From NCBI GenBank assembly GCA_035644215.1, contig DASQPA010000202.1:4162-68161 (forward strand): a stretch of DNA of 64,000 nucleotides, in the 5' to 3' direction. The stretch comes from Thermoanaerobaculia bacterium. GTDB taxonomy: Bacteria > Acidobacteriota > Thermoanaerobaculia > Multivoradales > UBA5704. This document shows, piece by piece, positions 10,937-57,162 of the stretch. The notes under the pieces are model-generated. The model was not told the origin of the DNA and did not search any database. It saw only the letters and a list, made by a program, of their open reading frames with translations. Every line of letters starts with the position of its first letter. Position 1 is the first letter of the stretch. The translations under genes were made by a program, and so were the position numbers.

Positions 10937-10975
10937 AGGCACTGACTTTGGCTCCGAGCGGTCCGGGTGGTGGGT

Positions 10976-10999
10976 CCCTCCCCCCTGGGAGGGGGAGGG
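10976..10999. terminator. GC-rich hairpin between the convergent dprA and coiled-coil genes (possible terminator, no U-tract)
   Basis: CCCTCCCCC (10976-10984) pairs with GGGGGAGGG (10991-10999) across a 6-nt loop. It lies 40 nt after the dprA stop. No T-run follows, so intrinsic-terminator status is uncertain. Confidence 0.3.
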
Positions 11000-11079
11000 T
11001 TGGATCAGGGGGGAGGCCAGGAGGGGGGCGCCGCCGACCCGAGACCTTCTTGGCGGATGCAAGGAGGGCCAGGGATGGC

Positions 11080-24350: not shown

Positions 24351-24872
24351 ATGGCGTGGAAAAGAGACGATTCCCCCAACCCGCAGCCCGAACCCCCCGC
24401 CGCCCCCCGCCCCATGACCAGCGCCCCTCCCCCGCCGCCCGCCGCGGAGCCGACCCGCCGCCCGTCCGAACGGGCGACCATCGGCCCCTCGATCTTCATC
24501 AAAGGCGATCTCGCCGGCGAGGAGGACCTGGTGATCGAAGGGCGGGTCGAGGGCAAGGTCGACCTGAAACAGCACAACGTCACGATCGGCAAGAACGGCC
24601 GGGTGAAGGCGGACGTCTTCGGCCGCGTCGTCACCGTCGAGGGCGAGGTGGACGGCAACGTCTTCGCCCAGGAGCAGGCGGTCCTGCGCCAGTCGGGCGC
24701 CGTGCGCGGCAACATCACCTCTCCCCGCGTCACCCTGGAGGACGGCTCGCGGTTCAAGGGCTCGATCGACATGGAGCCCAAGGACCTCGGCCGGGCATCC
24801 GGCCCGGCGCCGGGAGGGCCGCGGCGCGAGCCCGGAACCGAAGCCCCGGCCAACCGGATCGCCAACGCGTAG
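24351..24872 (+). CDS. bactofilin (polymer-forming cytoskeletal protein) with a Pro-rich N terminus
   Basis: IGPSIFIKGDLAGEEDLVIEGRVEGKVDLKQHNVTIGKNGRVKADVFGRVVTVEGEVDGNVFA...VRGNITSPRVTLEDGSRFKGSIDM is the beta-helical DUF583 repeat pattern. The ATG at 24351 follows AAGGAGA. Confidence 0.85.
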   Translation: MAWKRDDSPNPQPEPPAAPRPMTSAPPPPPAAEPTRRPSERATIGPSIFIKGDLAGEEDLVIEGRVEGKVDLKQHNVTIGKNGRVKADVFGRVVTVEGEVDGNVFAQEQAVLRQSGAVRGNITSPRVTLEDGSRFKGSIDMEPKDLGRASGPAPGGPRREPGTEAPANRIANA

Positions 24873-25523
24873 ATGAGCTGGTTTTCGTCGCACGGCTCCC
24901 GCGACAAGAAAAAGGAGCACCGCCCGACGGCCGAGACCGAGCCGCAGATCCACCGCTCGCTCGCCCTGACCGCCCTGCTCGAAGAGTTCCGCCGCGGCCG
25001 CAAGCTCCAGGTCCTGGACCTGGGGCCGGCCATCGGCAGCAACGTCGAGTTCCTCTCGCAGTTTGGCTGCAAAATCTATATCGAAGACCTCTACGCGGCC
25101 CTCTCGGCGCGCGCCGGGGGAGGCGACGGCGAGGAGGCCGGCCCGGAGTTCTTCGCCGAGTTCCTCCCCCGCTCGGAGGCGGTGAGCTTCGACGTGGTGA
25201 TCGCCTGGGACACCTGGAACTACCTGACCCGCAAGGAGCTCGGCTACTTCCTCAAGCACCTGGCCCTATTCTGTCAGCCGGGGACGGTGATCTTCTCCCT
25301 GATCTCGATCCTGAAGCAGATCCCGGCGCAGCCGATCCGTTTCCGCATCGTCGACGAGCAGAACCTGGCCTACGACGTGCGGACGACCGCGCTGCGGCCC
25401 GCGCCGCGCTTCGCGCCGGCCGACTTGAACGACCTCCTGCGCGGCTTCCGGGTCGACCGCTCCTTCCTGCTGCGCCACGGCATCCAGGAGTACCTGTTCG
25501 TGAAGGAAGGGGAGCGGCGGTAG
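24873..25523 (+). CDS. SAM-dependent methyltransferase-like protein, start abuts the bactofilin stop
   Basis: KLQVLDLGPAIGSNVEFL resembles motif I, and FDVVIAWDTWNYL resembles the post-II region. The start ATG directly follows the bactofilin TAG (TAGATG). The family assignment is tentative. Confidence 0.5.
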   Translation: MSWFSSHGSRDKKKEHRPTAETEPQIHRSLALTALLEEFRRGRKLQVLDLGPAIGSNVEFLSQFGCKIYIEDLYAALSARAGGGDGEEAGPEFFAEFLPRSEAVSFDVVIAWDTWNYLTRKELGYFLKHLALFCQPGTVIFSLISILKQIPAQPIRFRIVDEQNLAYDVRTTALRPAPRFAPADLNDLLRGFRVDRSFLLRHGIQEYLFVKEGERR

Positions 25524-25547
25524 GCGGCGTACCCCCGAGCGTACCTT

Positions 25548-26118
25548 CGCCCCTTCGGGGCTTTATTTTCTTGTGGTTACCCCAACCTGGGGCTCTCGCC
25601 CCAGGCTACCCACCTGCGCCCCTTCGGGGCTGTCTTCCCAGATAGGACGATCGATCTTGGGTCCCTTCACCTCGGCGGCCGGCAAGGATCAACCCTTGCG
25701 ATTCTGAGAGTTCTTCATGCGGCTACGCCGCACCCGAAGATGGATGAAAGGCGTATCCGCCTGCCACCCCCCTCCTGTCCTCCCCCCATCCCCTGGCACC
25801 CTCCCGCCCAGGGGGGAGGAACGCGGTAGTCAGCGTCGTCGTCGGGTGGTCAGAGCTCGAGTTGAAGCTGCCGATCGGGTCCCTCCCCCCTGGGTGGGTG
25901 TGAGGGTGGGGATGGGGGGAGGACAGGAGGGGGGTGGCACAGACGAGCGACGCCTAGCTCACAGGCTTTCGCCCCTTTGGGCACCTGGGCGGCGGCTGTC
26001 AAAGATCAACTACGATTGCTTGCGATTCTGAATCCGCCCCGAAGGGGCGCAGGTGGGTAGCCTGGGGTGCCAACCCCAGGTATGGTTAACCTCAAGAATC
26101 TACAGCCCCGAAGGGGCG
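25548..26118. repeat. nested palindromic composite element (about 83-bp terminal inverted repeats, 40-50-bp internal direct repeats, perfect 31-bp central stem)
   Basis: IR-L 25548-25630 is close to the reverse complement of IR-R 26036-26118; both contain two CGCCCCTTCGGGGC hairpins plus AGGCTACCCACCTGCGCC. DR1 is 25668-25707 and DR2 is 25982-26031 (CACCT.GGCGGC...GATCAAC...TTGCGATTCTGA). 25763-25793 is the exact reverse complement of 25908-25938 (31/31). Confidence 0.8.
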
Positions 26119-26320
26119 ACGGTAGTTTGAGACGTAACTGCCGTGGTCCCCTTTCAGGTTAAAGCCCCTCCTCTTCAACGCATCTCAGGCTCCTGGATGC
26201 CGATCGGAGGCCTCGGATGTCGATCTCAGGCCAGAGATCGCGATCCGAAGTCTCGGATATCTCTGGCGAGTCGCTTGGGCTCTCCGCAGGATGACGATGG
26301 GGAGGAGCGTGGCGAAACGA

Positions 26321-26935
26321 CCTCCGGAGAGGACGAACTCACCTCCGGCCGGCTCGGGAAACCCTCCGCGGGCGCCCAAACCCCCGAAAAGGCCTCCAAA
26401 AACTCTCCGGGTCGACTTCCTGCGTCTCCGGGTCGACTTCTGATCCCTCCGGCTCGACTTCCGACGCCTCCGGGTCGACTTTTTCCCTCTCCGGGTCGAC
26501 TTCCCATCCCTGGAAAGTCACTTTCGACGTCTCCGGGAAGACTTCTCATCCGTGGTGTTTTACTTTTCACGCGTGCAGCTCGACTTTCCGGGCGTGGAAA
26601 GTTACTTCCCAGGTGTCCAGGAAGACTTTCCGCGGTTTTGGAAGCTCCCGGAGGCCGTCCGGAAGCTCCCGGAGGGTTTCTGGAAGGTCCCGGAGGGTTT
26701 TGGGAACCTCCCGGAGAAATTTCGGCAGCGCCCGGAGGATCTCTGGAAGCTCCCGCAGACCGTCCGGAACCTCCCGGAGAGTCTCCGGAAGGACTTTGCA
26801 CGGGTGCCGGACGACTTTCCAGAGGTTCCGGAAGCGTCCGGAGACGTCCCGGAAGCACCCGGAGGCGCTACGGACTTTCCACGGGTTCCGGACGTTCCCG
26901 GAGGGGTTTCTGAAGATCCCGGAGGCTTTCGCCGC
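26321..26935. repeat. degenerate tandem array with strict 21-bp periodicity (about 29 units) in two inverted blocks
   Basis: Units like CTCCGGGTCGACTTCCnnnnn run from about 26405 to 26550. Units like nnnnGGAAGCTCCCGGAGnnn (the reverse-complement motif) run from about 26636 to 26930. The 21-bp phase is kept throughout, and several reading frames on both strands stay open for long stretches. Confidence 0.85.
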
Positions 26936-26939
26936 GTTC

Positions 26940-27572
26940 TTACGTCGCGGCCACGCGGGCCGTCGCCGTCATCATGCCCCAGGGCCAGGGCGCACTATAA
27001 GACTCGACCGCCACCTCGGCCAGGCCGGCGGCTTCGAGGAGCTGCCGGCACCGGGCCTTGCCGTAGATGCGCTGGTGCGCGTGATCGAACCGGCGCACGA
27101 TCCACTCGCAGATCCGGCAGGCCAGGAAGTCGGCGCACCAGTCGGTGATCACCAGGCGGCCGCCGGGCCGCAGGACTCGCCGGATCTCCTGCAGCGCCTC
27201 CTCCGGGTGCGGCCAGTAGTGAAAGGAGCTGATCGAGACGACGACGTCGAACGAGCCCGAAGGGTAAGGCAGGGCGCCGACGTCGCCCAGGGCGAGCGGG
27301 ACCGCCGGAGGAAGACTCGCCCGGGCGCAGGCGAGCATGGCGAGCGACAGATCGACACCGCAGAGCCGCGGCGCGGCGCTCTCCAGGACCAGTTCCCGGA
27401 GCAGGGCGCCGGTACCACAGCCGAGGTCGAGCAGCTGTTCGCCCGGGCGCAGGGCCAGGCGGGCCAGGGTGGCCCGCGTCGTCGCCCGGATGTAGCGCGC
27501 CCACCGCCGGTCGTAGACCGCCGCGAGCCGATCGTAGGTCTGGCGGACCGGGGCGTTGGCAGAGTTCCTCAT
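26940..27572 (-). CDS. class I SAM-dependent methyltransferase (Methyltransf_11/UbiE-like)
   Basis: YDRLAAVYDRRW..., LLDLGCGTGAL (motif I), FDVVVSISSFHYWP and RVLRPGGRLVITDW. Confidence 0.85.
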   Translation of the reverse strand: MRNSANAPVRQTYDRLAAVYDRRWARYIRATTRATLARLALRPGEQLLDLGCGTGALLRELVLESAAPRLCGVDLSLAMLACARASLPPAVPLALGDVGALPYPSGSFDVVVSISSFHYWPHPEEALQEIRRVLRPGGRLVITDWCADFLACRICEWIVRRFDHAHQRIYGKARCRQLLEAAGLAEVAVESYSAPWPWGMMTATARVAAT

Positions 27573-27684: not shown

Positions 27685-28191
27685 TCAAGCCTCCGGCTCT
27701 GCCGGAGGTCTGTAACGGGTCAGTCCGATCTCGGCGGACAACTCGGCGCTGACCAACACGCGGATGCCGTGGCGCAGCAGGGATGTGAAATGGCGGCGGT
27801 TCTCGGTGGTGACGAGCTGCGCACCAGCCTGCCGCGCGATCTCGGCAATGTGTGCATCGTAGATCCTACCGCCCATCGTGCCCTCCCCTACGGTGGAGAT
27901 CAGGAACTCCTCCCGCAGTTTCGATGGGAGGTCGTGGACCGAGAAACGAGGGAAGATCTCCTCCCGCAGGAGCCGTAGGGCGATCTCCGGTTCGAGGCGG
28001 TATTCTTCCGGTAGGCGCGTCGTCACCGAGTAGAACTCGAGACAGCAATGCCAAGCGGTTAGCGGGCGCTCGATCTGGCCGTTCGCGACCGCATCCATCA
28101 GCAGTAGGGCGTGCTGCGAGCTGCGGCCAAAGTCGATGCTTCCGGCGATGAGGATACTGGTATCGAAGAAGGCCCCCCTCAGCCCGGCCAC
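27685..28191 (-). CDS. vapC: PIN-domain ribonuclease toxin (VapC-like) with an extended C terminus
   Basis: GAFFDTSILIAG (first acidic PIN residue), ...IYDAHIAEIARQAGAQLVTTENRRHF (distal PIN motifs). It overlaps the upstream AbrB-type gene by 13 nt. Confidence 0.78.
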   Translation of the reverse strand: MAGLRGAFFDTSILIAGSIDFGRSSQHALLLMDAVANGQIERPLTAWHCCLEFYSVTTRLPEEYRLEPEIALRLLREEIFPRFSVHDLPSKLREEFLISTVGEGTMGGRIYDAHIAEIARQAGAQLVTTENRRHFTSLLRHGIRVLVSAELSAEIGLTRYRPPAEPEA

Positions 28192-28463
28192 CGGTCCCGC
28201 TCCTCTTCCATCAACCGCGCCACGTCGACCTCGGCGCGCTCTCCTTCCGGCACCCGAGGGCGGACGACCAGCCGCTCGCCGCGCCGGACGAGCTCGGGGC
28301 CGGCGACCGACCGGACCAGGTGGATGGCGAAGCCCTCGACCACCATCTCAAGCTCCGTGCCGGCGGCCAGACCGAGCCGCTTGCGCACCTCGGCAGGAAT
28401 GACCACACGCCCGGCCTTGTCAATGGTCATGATCATGGGTGTAGCGTACCATGCCTTTGCCAC
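28179..28463 (-). CDS. vapB: AbrB/SpoVT-family antitoxin (VapB-like)
   Basis: MTIDKAGRVVIPAEVRKRLGLAAGTELEM is the swapped-hairpin AbrB motif. The start is ambiguous: GTG at 28463, or ATG at 28434 or 28428. Confidence 0.78.
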   Translation of the reverse strand: MAKAWYATPMIMTIDKAGRVVIPAEVRKRLGLAAGTELEMVVEGFAIHLVRSVAGPELVRRGERLVVRPRVPEGERAEVDVARLMEEERDRWPG

Positions 28464-41913: not shown

Positions 41914-42000
41914 GAGGATCTCCGCCCGCTGATTCCCGCGATTCATAGTGCTCTCACGGTCGTTTCTCCCGGGCAGGTGCTGCGACTGGGGACGTGAGCT

Positions 42001-42357
42001 TACGCTGGACCATTGTCTCGGGAGACGGGCCGTATCTGCTTACGCTGGACCATTGTCCCGGGAGACGAGCCGTATCTGCTTATGCTGGCCCATTGTCTCG
42101 GGAGACGAGCCGTATCTGCTTATGCTGGACCATTGTCCCGGGAGACGGGCCGTATCTGCTTACGCTGGACCATTGTCTCGGGAGACGGGCCGTATCTGCT
42201 TATGCTGGACCATTGTCTCGGGAGACGGGCCGTATCTGCTTACGCTGGACCATTGTCTCGGGAGACGGGCCGTATCTGCTTACGCTGGACCATTGTCTCG
42301 GGAGATGGGCCGTATCTGCTTACGCTGGACCATTGTCCCGGGAGATGGGACGTATCG
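42001..42357. repeat. tandem array, 40-bp unit x about 9, each unit with a GTCTC-GG-GAGAC palindrome
   Basis: TACGCTGGACCATTGTCTCGGGAGACGGGCCGTATCTGCT repeats head-to-tail from 42001, with units starting every 40 nt up to 42321. There are no spacers. The only variants are transitions at about 5 positions, and the last unit decays. Confidence 0.92.
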
Positions 42358-56938: not shown

Positions 56939-57162
56939 CCGACCGACACCCTGCTCGTCGGTCATCGGCGTCATGCATTCGGTGATCGCCATCCTGCTCG
57001 CAGTCATCGACGCCATGCATTCAGTGACCGACACCCTGCTCGCCAGTCATCGACGGCATGCATCCGGTGACCGACACCCTGCTCGCCAGTCATCGACGGC
57101 ATGCATTCGGTGACCAACACCCTGCTCGCCGGTCATCGCCAGCATGTATTCGGTGACCGCCA
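56939..57162. repeat. tandem array, about 43-bp unit x 5.2, each unit with an imperfect palindrome centred on GCATGC
   Basis: Units start at 56939, 56982, 57024, 57067, 57110 and 57153 (partial). Consensus is GTGACCGACACCCTGCTCGCCAGTCATCGACGGCATGCATTCG. Across unit junctions, GTCATCGACGGCATGCATTCGGTGAC matches its own reverse complement at 20 of 26 positions. Confidence 0.88.

What the first reader, a model, noticed from the sequence alone, without database searches (positions are those of the whole stretch)
26321..26935. About 615 bp of strict 21-bp periodicity arranged as two inverted blocks
About 29 consecutive 21-bp units keep phase. The left block is built on CTCCGGGTCGACTTCC. The right block is built on GGAAGCTCCCGGAG, essentially its reverse complement, so the whole array is a giant imperfect palindrome of tandem repeats. 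Twenty-one bp equals two helical turns, so any bound protein would line up on one face of the DNA, as in iteron-type plasmid centromeres; that comparison is inference. Alternatively it may encode a heptad-repeat protein. Plus-strand frame 2 (open from 26444) reads LRVDFxx heptads, then FWKLPEA VRKLPEG FWKVPEG FGNLPEK FRQRPED LWKLPQT VRNLPES. By my count 45 of 53 third positions in 26636-26794 are G/C, clearly more than in the other frames I translated. However, the codons are not independent because they are repeats. I saw no ATG and no obvious RBS. That frame also only stops at 27148, 209 nt into the convergent methyltransferase gene. The array ends 4 nt from that gene's stop codon.
Basis: partly seen in the sequence, partly recalled or inferred. 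Interest (0 to 1): 0.7.

Follow-up and report, generated by a model that had tools for sequence, protein, structure and literature searches.

The report
Dispersed non-coding 21-bp repeat element
The 21-bp array is real, but it is neither a gene nor a local centromere: it is one copy of a roughly 0.5-0.7 kb non-coding repeat element scattered through the genomes of a group of soil Acidobacteriota, and its short conserved cores look like phased binding sites for an unknown factor.

Summary
Window 26321-26935 has lag-21 autocorrelation of 0.56 against a mean of 0.27. A left block of CTCCGGGTCGACTT units is followed by a right block of GGAAG-N3-CCGGAG units in the inverse motif orientation.

The array is not unique to this locus. 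One DNA-pattern scan of metagenomes returned 60 loci. About 47 have the same left-then-right architecture, and 27 are distinct full copies with unrelated flanks. One contig carries two copies, and one Acidobacteriota MAG has arrays on two contigs. By comparison with a copy in a different context, the element spans about 26270-26939.

Coding is rejected:
- The heptad frame has stop codons in 21 of 27 copies.
- No start or stop codon is conserved.
- Substitutions split 41/25/34% over codon positions.
- One-base indels occur.
- "Synonymous" positions of the cores are 97-99% invariant.

Cores diverge 3-5% between copies and spacers 10-39%. Unit order is preserved between copies, so the cores are kept by selection rather than homogenisation.

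Best reading: a lineage-specific interspersed minisatellite or mosaic element whose phased cores are protein-binding sites. The binding step is inferred and the factor is unknown. The element resembles the BrickBuilt MITE, MIRU and BIME elements but is a member of none of them.

The parts
26270..26939 (+). Whole element: one copy of the dispersed repeat family (leader, U, L, M, R and tail modules)
   Evidence: Homology with L019, a copy with different flanks on both sides, runs from -135 to +534 relative to 26405 at 90% identity. The right edge is sharp, 10-19 nt after the last core, in many pairs of copies. The left edge varies by subfamily from -55 to -157.
26270..26320 (+). Leader, not periodic; shared with copies L019 and L018
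   Evidence: Alignment of left flanks. The reading frame is not kept between copies: 1-nt indels separate W, L018 and L019.
26321..26404 (+). U units: 4 degenerate 21-bp units of CCTCCGG type
   Evidence: 21-nt rows. In other subfamilies the equivalent units read GTGGAAAGTCCTCGGGAACCC.
26405..26509 (+). L block: 5 units, core CTCCGGGTCGACTT plus a 7-8 nt variable spacer
   Evidence: In the logo of 186 units from 27 copies, positions 1-13 are near-invariant and positions 14-20 variable.
26510..26635 (+). M block: 6 transition units. It includes two near-palindromes, GGAAAGTNACTTYCC at 26512-26526 and 26596-26610, and two CTCCGGGAAGACTT-type units. It is the most conserved part of the element.
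   Evidence: Rows. Column variability is 0.03-0.11, against 0.07-0.16 in the L and R blocks. ACTTYY sits at phase 10 in 11 consecutive units, 26415-26625.
26636..26782 (+). R block: 7 units, core GGAAG-N3-CCGGAG, the inverse motif orientation of the L units
   Evidence: In the logo of 267 units, GGAAG and CCGGAG are 92-99% invariant.
26783..26939 (+). Tail: about 7 units alternating GACTTTCC-type and GGAAG..CCGGAG-type, with phase slips of +1 and -3; ends just before the stop codon of the convergent gene
   Evidence: Rows and phases. There is a 3-nt gap against the ortholog L061 at +468. The terminal 22-26 nt can pair with 26303-26328 in the predicted fold.

Best explanation
Window 26270-26939 is one copy of a lineage-specific, non-coding interspersed repeat element of soil Acidobacteriota.

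Shown:
- The element is a fixed series of modules (leader, U, L, M, R, tail) built from 21-bp units.
- It occurs at many unrelated intergenic sites.
- It varies by whole units between alleles.
- Its 11-13-nt cores evolve several times more slowly than its spacers, at nucleotide rather than codon level.

Inferred:
- Each unit is a binding site made of two half-site types, CCGGAG and GGAAAGT/ACTTYCC, placed at fixed positions within the 21-bp unit.
- Because the units repeat every two helical turns, an array would load some 25-30 copies of a sequence-specific DNA-binding protein on one face of the DNA.
- That protein could be a host nucleoid-type factor or the recombinase/transposase that spread the element.

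The element has nothing specific to do with the adjacent bactofilin or methyltransferase genes.
For: Dispersal:
- The pattern CCGGGTCGACTT-N9-CCGGGTCGACTT returned 60 metagenome loci.
- About 47 of them show the same L-then-R architecture.
- 27 are distinct full copies of 396-606 bp.
- Flanks are unrelated and no neighbouring protein recurs.
- Two copies lie on one 97.7-kb contig.
- MAG BP_61 has arrays on two contigs, each at a contig end.

Not coding:
- The heptad frame has stops in 21 of 27 copies and no conserved start or stop.
- Substitutions split 41/25/34% over codon positions.
- Between W and its positional ortholog L061 the array shows 22/14/21 substitutions, while the flanking methyltransferase shows 8/17/28. 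The array also carries a 1-nt indel.
- The third positions of the would-be CCG and CGG codons are 99% and 97% G.
- There is no Pfam hit in any frame.

Constraint:
- Core divergence is 3-5.5% against 10-39% for spacers.
- With cores defined from W alone, divergence is 4.9% against 14.0%, Fisher p = 0.003.
- Third-position divergence of the methyltransferase gene in the same pair is 13%.
- Spacer identity is 0.65-0.66 for same-index units between copies and 0.47-0.51 for different-index units within a copy. Order is therefore inherited and the cores are not kept by homogenisation.

Phasing:
- 146 of 159 L-L spacings and 228 of 240 R-R spacings are exact multiples of 21.
- Motifs keep fixed positions in the unit.

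Other points:
- The near-palindrome GGAAAGTNACTTTCC is typical of sites for dimeric DNA-binding proteins (established knowledge).
- Orientation is unrelated to the flanking genes.
Against: - No binding protein has been identified and no binding data exist.
- The 21-bp phase could simply be inherited from the founding duplication.
- 21 is also a multiple of 3, and GC by position (0.70/0.38/0.70-0.85) mimics a codon pattern.
- Half-site spacing differs by 2 nt between L and R units, which is awkward for a single rigid bipartite reader.
- No target-site duplications, clean terminal inverted repeats or partner transposase were found, so the means of dispersal is unknown.
- Orthologous pairs share only one flank. 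This may reflect real rearrangement or chimeric assembly across the repeat.
- The single-strand fold is more stable than shuffles (z = -4.9 and -4.4), so an RNA or hairpin role is not excluded.
Confidence: 0.6

Rival explanations
1. The element acts as RNA or single-stranded DNA. Transcribed arrays would fold into a long rod (L cores pairing with R cores) or into strings of small hairpins. They would then act as a structured RNA, for example a sponge for an RNA-binding protein that recognises GGA-type motifs.
For: - The L and R cores are complementary: 7 + 5 bp per unit pair.
- The minimum free energy is -321.5 kcal/mol, with z = -4.9 on the plus strand and -4.4 on the minus strand.
- Within R units the potential 6-bp stem (positions 0-5 with 12-17) is paired in 73-96% of 267 units. 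Its C/T variation sits opposite an invariant G, which keeps G-U pairing only on the plus strand.
Against: - No Rfam family matches the array.
- No promoter-like or terminator-like sites were found within the array; the only two terminator-like hits lie about 760 bp upstream, at chance level.
- G-G mismatches occur in 20-23% of units at two stem positions.
- The paired cores are invariant, so there is no covariation to count.
- L and R unit numbers differ within copies, for example 8 against 12 and 6 against 11.
- Orientation shows no relation to flanking transcription.
Confidence: 0.15
2. The element is a decaying selfish or neutral satellite with no present function. Its cores look conserved only because of the way the repeat turns over.
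For: - Overall array divergence between orthologs (10.9%) is close to third-codon-position divergence of the neighbouring gene (13%).
- Some copies carry many 1-nt phase slips, for example L014.
- The edges are ragged and there are no target-site duplications.
- The element co-locates with other repeat families in the same intergenic regions.
Against: - Cores diverge 3-8 times more slowly than spacers in every pair tested.
- Unit order and spacers are inherited position by position, which argues against homogenisation.
- The distinct M units are the best conserved part across subfamilies.
- About 94% of spacings stay exact multiples of 21 despite up to 39% spacer divergence.
Confidence: 0.17
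3. The array is a gene, or a family of genes, for a heptad-repeat protein (LRVDFxx then WKLPEGF) read in plus frame 2, or LRELPxx read on the minus strand.
For: - GC by position resembles a codon pattern, with frame-2 GC3 of 0.85 in the R block.
- Frame 2 is open in 6 of 27 copies.
- Two database ORFs, P0001 and P0002, read this frame at 47-49% identity.
- In L006 the frame stops at the end of the array.
- A Streptomyces SLT-domain protein has LRELPxx heptads (P0003, E = 1.6e-5).
Against: - Stops occur in 21 of 27 copies, at recurrent spacer positions (TTC TGA).
- L005 has 8 stops in its left block.
- No start codon, ribosome-binding site or stop codon is conserved.
- Substitutions split 41/25/34%.
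- One-nt indels separate orthologs and paralogs.
- Core 'synonymous' sites are invariant.
- Genes in this genome have GC3 of 0.90-0.95.
- There is no Pfam match.
- The only frame open in 22 of 27 copies has GC3 of about 0.38 and its most conserved position is the third.
Confidence: 0.03
4. The array is a locus-specific centromere or iteron-like site serving the adjacent bactofilin and methyltransferase genes.
For: - The array has iteron-like tandem units at two-turn spacing.
- A bactofilin gene lies about 1.4 kb upstream.
Against: - Dozens of copies have unrelated neighbours.
- No partition ATPase gene is adjacent.
- The element is absent beside the orthologous methyltransferase in L067.
- In L061 the left neighbour is a tRNA, not the bactofilin.
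- There is no plasmid match.
Confidence: 0.02

Closest known systems
BrickBuilt MITE of Porphyromonas gingivalis (PMC4596501)
   Same: - It is a species-restricted, always-intergenic, multi-copy element (19 copies).
- Its body is a spacer-less minisatellite of about 20-nt units (23 nt), flanked by 'leader' and 'tail' parts.
- The number of units varies between copies.
   Different: - Here the unit is 21 bp.
- There are two blocks with opposite motif orientation plus a distinct, conserved transition block.
- The units are ordered variants rather than one repeated brick.
- No clear terminal inverted repeats or target-site duplications were found.
- Promoter activity is untested.
- The host phylum is different.
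MIRU-type interspersed minisatellites of Mycobacterium tuberculosis (own knowledge: Supply et al. 1997)
   Same: - Tandem repeats of tens of bp occur at many dispersed intergenic loci of one lineage.
- Alleles differ by whole units, as here with L046, P0001 and P0002.
   Different: - MIRUs are 46-101 bp, sit inside operons in the direction of transcription, and carry small ORFs that overlap the flanking genes.
- Here orientation is independent of the neighbours and no frame is conserved.
BIMEs (mosaics of REP/palindromic units) of enterobacteria (own knowledge)
   Same: - They are dispersed intergenic mosaics.
- A small set of motifs alternates in orientation in a stereotyped order.
- They are bound by host proteins (IHF, gyrase, Pol I), which is the kind of role proposed here.
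   Different: - REP units are 35-40-bp hairpins separated by other motifs, not a strict 21-bp tandem register.
- There is no sequence similarity.
- No RAYT-type partner gene was seen here.
Iteron arrays of plasmid centromeres (R1 parC, F sopC, pB171 parC; own knowledge)
   Same: They consist of tandem short repeats, sometimes in two sets, that load many copies of one DNA-binding protein in helical register.
   Different: - They occur in one or a few copies per replicon, next to a par operon.
- The present element is chromosomal, dispersed and has no par genes nearby.
Foldback / Galileo-type transposons of Drosophila (PMC3573991)
   Same: They have long arms in inverted orientation that are themselves built of short tandem repeats.
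   Different: - They are eukaryotic and have defined terminal inverted repeats, target-site duplications and a transposase.
- Here the arms are inverted only at the motif level and no transposase was found.

Membership tests
Heptad-repeat protein-coding gene | An open reading frame with conserved start and stop across homologs | tested here: not met
   Frame 2 has stops in 21 of 27 copies, and there is no shared start or stop. L005 has 8 stops in its left block.
Heptad-repeat protein-coding gene | Substitutions concentrated at third codon positions; indels in multiples of 3 | tested here: not met
   Substitutions split 41/25/34% over positions 1/2/3. Between W and L061 the array shows 22/14/21, against 8/17/28 in the flanking gene. 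One-nt indels occur. Would-be synonymous core sites are 97-99% fixed.
Heptad-repeat protein-coding gene | Codon-position GC like the genome's genes (GC3 0.90-0.95) | tested here: inconclusive
   Frame-2 GC1/2/3 is about 0.70/0.38/0.70-0.85. This is codon-like in shape but GC3 is below that of real genes.
Heptad-repeat protein-coding gene | Membership of a recognised protein family | tested here: not met
   No Pfam hit in any frame. The only database relatives are two uncharacterised ORFs called over another copy of the element.
Iteron-type plasmid centromere (parC/sopC-like) | Adjacent partition operon (ParA/ParM/TubZ plus a centromere-binding protein) | tested here: not met
   The neighbours are methyltransferases, a bactofilin and a MazE/PIN pair. 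No neighbour recurs across copies.
Iteron-type plasmid centromere (parC/sopC-like) | One or a few copies per replicon, on a plasmid or near an origin | tested here: not met
   47 or more loci carry the element, two of them on one contig. There is no match in 72,556 plasmids.
Iteron-type plasmid centromere (parC/sopC-like) | Repeats bound cooperatively by a dedicated DNA-binding protein | not testable with these tools
   This needs EMSA, DAP-seq or ChIP.
MITE (miniature inverted-repeat transposable element) | Short (<~800 bp), non-coding, multi-copy and dispersed | tested here: met
   Copies are 396-606 bp of units plus a leader. There are 27 distinct full copies with unrelated flanks.
MITE (miniature inverted-repeat transposable element) | Defined terminal inverted repeats | tested here: inconclusive
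   In the W subfamily the ends (26303-26328 and 26915-26939) are partly complementary. The left edges differ by subfamily, from -55 to -157, and look ragged.
MITE (miniature inverted-repeat transposable element) | Target-site duplications flanking each copy | tested here: not met
   None are visible at six pairs of junctions. The edges are not known to the base, so this is a weak negative.
MITE (miniature inverted-repeat transposable element) | A cognate autonomous element or transposase with matching ends | tested here: inconclusive
   No recurrent protein is found within 5-10 kb of the copies. Whole genomes were not available to search.
Interspersed minisatellite (MIRU/VNTR-like) | Tandem 10-100-bp units at many dispersed intergenic loci, with alleles differing by whole units | tested here: met
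   L046, P0001 and P0002 share their ends but differ by 1 and 6 units.
Interspersed minisatellite (MIRU/VNTR-like) | MIRU-specific: co-oriented with the operon, with small ORFs overlapping the flanking genes | tested here: not met
   Both orientations and all flank configurations occur. No frame is conserved.
CRISPR array | Identical repeats separated by unique spacers of similar length (>=20 nt) | tested here: not met
   The variable stretches are only 5-8 nt inside a 21-nt unit.
Curated structured RNA (Rfam) | A match to a covariance model at gathering score | tested here: not met
   There is no hit in the array in the window or in the 16 other loci scanned (L005, L006 and 14 metagenome loci). 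Only Acido-Lenti-1 is found, outside the array.

The most novel reading that the evidence does not exclude
The arrays are a genome-wide set of functional protein-loading platforms. Each would hold about 25-30 dyad-type sites at exact two-turn spacing, kept by selection at dozens of intergenic sites. They would be used by an uncultured Acidobacteriota lineage to organise, silence or insulate its chromosome, which would make them a bacterial 'functional satellite' with its own dedicated DNA-binding protein.
Probability: 0.2. Interest if true: 0.7.

Novelty: new variant of a known kind. Interest (0 to 1): 0.45.

Why it matters
If the phased cores are binding sites under selection, these arrays mark a previously undescribed DNA-protein system in a poorly known, uncultured soil phylum. 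The palindromic GGAAAGTNACTTTCC unit would give a concrete probe for finding the protein.

There are also practical consequences:
- The family causes spurious protein predictions. A 238-aa ORF is called over it here, and P0001 and P0002 sit in public protein sets.
- It breaks or mis-joins metagenome assemblies: several arrays sit at contig ends, and ortholog pairs share only one flank.
- It could serve as a VNTR-type strain marker.

It also shows that a codon-like three-base pattern and a heptad-looking translation can arise from a non-coding 21-bp repeat.

Tried and rejected
- Pfam scan of the four repeat-bearing translations of the array (plus frames 1 and 2, two minus frames): nothing.
- Chimeric protein search with the plus-frame-2 and in-phase minus translations. 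It returned only two ORFs called over another copy, plus a Streptomyces SLT protein with LRELPxx heptads. I treat the latter as a low-complexity coincidence.
- Exact look-up of P0001 and P0002: not on record.
- Viral contigs, plasmids and phages: no match.
- Link to Acido-Lenti-1 RNA: the motif flanks the array in the window, but it appears in only 1 of 14 further loci by Rfam and in 6 of the other loci by BLAST. I rejected it as a constant partner.
- tRNA adjacency as an integration site: only 2 real cases in 28 loci.
- Recurrent neighbouring gene or transposase: none.
- Target-site duplications and clean terminal inverted repeats: not seen.
- End-to-end palindrome: the best self-alignment is the R block against itself.
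- An extended -10-like TGGTATTTT in the M block of several copies reads TGGTGTTTT in the window copy, and the promoter scan found nothing.
- L017 and L040 matched the search pattern but are unrelated repeats. L048 is a fold-back contig, probably an artefact.
- Literature searches for a described Acidobacteria repeat of this type found none.

Full report
**1. Observation**

Window 26321-26935 is strongly 21-periodic. Identity at lag 21 is 0.56, at lag 42 0.52 and at lag 63 0.46, against a mean of 0.27. TRF reports period 21/42/63 arrays.

Written in 21-nt rows, the region shows an ordered series of unit types:
- four degenerate CCTCCGG units (26321-26404);
- five CTCCGGGTCGACTT units (26405-26509);
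- six transition units (26510-26635), which include two near-palindromes GGAAAGTNACTTYCC;
- seven GGAAG-N3-CCGGAG units (26636-26782);
- a mixed tail running to about 26939.

Phase is exact for about 24 units and then slips by +1 and by -3. Both core motifs are far above chance and occur only here in the window.

The left block matches the reverse complement of the right block with a score of 39, against 15.2 +/- 2.6 for shuffles and 14 for the direct orientation. This inversion holds at the motif level only, with a 2-nt difference in half-site spacing. A self-reverse-complement alignment of the whole region does not give an end-to-end palindrome.

Four independent assemblies carry the identical sequence.

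**2. It is one copy of a dispersed family**

A protein search with the array translations found two ORFs with the same order of heptad types. A scan of species-representative genomes then found arrays on two contigs of one Acidobacteriota MAG, BP_61.

A DNA pattern of two adjacent left-block cores returned 60 metagenome loci, mostly from one series of soil samples.
- About 47 show the same left-then-right architecture.
- 27 are distinct full copies with at least 300 bp of flank on each side, and measure 396-606 bp.
- Two loci matched by chance and one is a fold-back contig.

Flanks differ between copies, and all-against-all comparison of flanking ORFs finds no recurrent neighbour. One 97.7-kb contig carries two copies.

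Comparison with L019, which is 90% identical with different flanks on both sides, puts the element at about 26270-26939. L061 is the positional ortholog: it has the same methyltransferase on the right but a tRNA-Ala on the left. L067 has an 81%-identical methyltransferase and 90% DNA identity in the neighbouring phosphodiesterase gene. It has only 28 nt and then a Tricorn protease gene where the array would be.

The element lies in either orientation, next to gene starts or gene ends. There is no match in viral contigs, plasmids or phages and no Rfam hit in the array.

**3. It is not a gene**

- Plus frame 2 (LRVDF/WKLPEGF) contains stop codons in 21 of 27 copies. They are typically TTC-TGA in left-block spacers, with none in 6 copies. 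L005 has eight in its left block.
- No start codon, ribosome-binding site or stop codon is shared. The frame simply runs on into whatever follows.
- Among ten copies that align without gaps over 378 nt, pairwise differences fall 41/25/34% on codon positions 1/2/3.
- Between the orthologs W and L061 the array has 57 differences split 22/14/21, plus a 1-nt indel. The adjacent methyltransferase has 53 differences split 8/17/28.
- In 267 right-block units the third base of the would-be Pro codon CCG is G in 99%. In 186 left-block units the third base of CGG is G in 97%. 'Synonymous' sites are therefore as fixed as the rest of the core.
- The only frame open in most copies (22 of 27) is a minus frame whose third position has GC of about 0.38 and is the least variable. 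This is the opposite of a gene in a genome with GC3 of 0.90-0.95.
- The ORF that gene callers place here (26197-26913, 238 aa) is in yet another frame and has no family.

**4. Evidence for constraint at the nucleotide level**

Between copies, core positions differ by 3-5.5% and the remaining positions by 10-39%. When the cores are defined from the window copy alone, the ortholog pair gives 4.9% against 14.0% (Fisher p = 0.003). Third-codon positions of the neighbouring gene differ by 13% in the same pair.

Spacers of same-index units in different copies are 65-66% identical. Spacers of different-index units within one copy are 47-51% identical. The internal order was therefore inherited when the element spread, and homogenisation is weak. 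Core conservation thus reflects selection on each unit.

The transition block is the most conserved part. Of 399 core-to-core spacings in 27 copies, 374 are exact multiples of 21. Alleles of one locus (L046, P0001, P0002) differ by whole units.

**5. Anatomy that suggests a mechanism**

Every unit type places its motifs at fixed positions in the 21-bp frame:
- ACTTYY at position 10 in eleven consecutive units;
- CTCCGG at position 0 in the left block;
- GGAAG at position 4 and CCGGAG at position 12 in the right block.

Units can be read as combinations of two half-site types around one dyad. The pure form is the 15-bp palindrome GGAAAGTNACTTTCC. Dyad symmetry, sequence-level conservation, independence from transcription direction and a two-turn repeat are what one expects of sites for a dimeric DNA-binding protein lined up on one face of the helix. 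That last step rests on established knowledge and inference.

I therefore commit to a protein-loading array as the most likely mechanism. The protein may be a host factor or the enzyme that spread the element. The binding, the protein and the mode of spread are not shown. No target-site duplications, clean terminal repeats or partner gene were found.

**6. Rivals**

- **RNA or single-strand hairpin role.** This is not excluded. The fold has z = -4.9 and -4.4, and C/T variation opposite an invariant G keeps wobble pairs on the plus strand. Against it, there is no covariation to count, mismatches are frequent, arm unit numbers are unequal and no promoter is seen.
- **Functionless decaying satellite.** This fits the overall near-neutral divergence and the ragged edges, but not the contrast between cores and spacers.
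- **Coding gene and locus-specific centromere.** Both are effectively refuted.

**7. Comparison with what is known**

The element works most like the interspersed repeats that carry or consist of minisatellites or motif mosaics. These are the BrickBuilt MITE of P. gingivalis (23-nt bricks with leader and tail, 19 intergenic copies; PMC4596501), MIRUs and BIMEs.

It is not a member of any of them. There is no sequence similarity, and the defining MITE features (terminal inverted repeats, target-site duplications) and MIRU features (operon orientation, overlapping small ORFs) are not met.

What is new is the fixed series of ordered unit variants in a strict two-turn register, with two blocks of opposite motif orientation around a conserved palindromic centre. 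I rate it a new variant of a known kind, of moderate interest.

Noticed in passing
window 25542-25630 and 26036-26124: An 89-bp inverted repeat (86.5% identity). Each arm contains an Rfam Acido-Lenti-1 hit (25586-25631 on the plus strand, 26035-26080 on the minus strand), and the arms bracket about 400 bp just upstream of the array. Copies lie near arrays in only a minority of other loci, so it is not a constant partner.
   Followed up: partly
window 25704-25940 (sub-piece 25877-25934 also at window 10972-11028): A further dispersed repeat family. It is a self-complementary segment of about 240 bp with copies in L010/L036, L046, L048, L049 and L064. Its 60-bp piece occurs in about ten other loci. 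The intergenic region 25524-26939 is a pile-up of at least three repeat families.
   Followed up: partly
window 41998-42356: A tandem array of 9 copies of a 40-bp unit (95% matches): GCTTACGCTGGACCATTGTCTCGGGAGACGGGCCGTATCT. Each unit holds the hairpin GTCTC-GG-GAGAC, and the array starts right after a stop codon. It is unrelated in sequence to the 21-bp array.
   Followed up: partly
window 56941-57159: A tandem array of about 5 copies of a 43-bp unit (87% matches), GACCGACACCCTGCTCGCCAGTCATCGACGGCATGCATTCGGT. Its nature is unknown.
   Followed up: no
window 27685-28463 (minus strand): A MazE-like/PIN toxin-antitoxin pair sits between the phosphodiesterase and methyltransferase genes in the window. 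It is missing from that position in the related loci L061 and L067; in L067 a 90%-identical pair lies about 4 kb away. This indicates a recent insertion or relocation.
   Followed up: partly
window 26197-26913 (+); proteins P0001, P0002: Gene callers predict proteins over copies of this element, and these have entered public protein collections: a 238-aa ORF here and 266- and 301-aa ORFs at an L046-like locus. They are most likely spurious.
   Followed up: yes
window 24414-25523 (+): A bactofilin gene is immediately followed by a 216-aa weakly methyltransferase-like gene (Methyltransf_23, E = 1.9e-6). The same pair is called in L001 and L003. It may be a conserved two-gene unit but has no demonstrated link to the array.
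   Followed up: no
L017 399-730 (reverse strand); L048 2500-3260; L041 1638-1715: L017 (a different sample series) holds an unrelated 21-nt repeat that looks genuinely coding (RRVDFDH-type heptads). L048 is a contig that folds back on itself across an array, probably an assembly artefact. ARAGORN calls a tRNA-Gln inside the right block of L041, probably a false positive.
   Followed up: partly
pairs L023/L027, L014/L025, L032/L041 and window/L061: Copies that are orthologous on one side have unrelated sequence on the other side. Either the arrays are synteny breakpoints through recombination between copies, or metagenome assemblers mis-join contigs across them.
   Followed up: no
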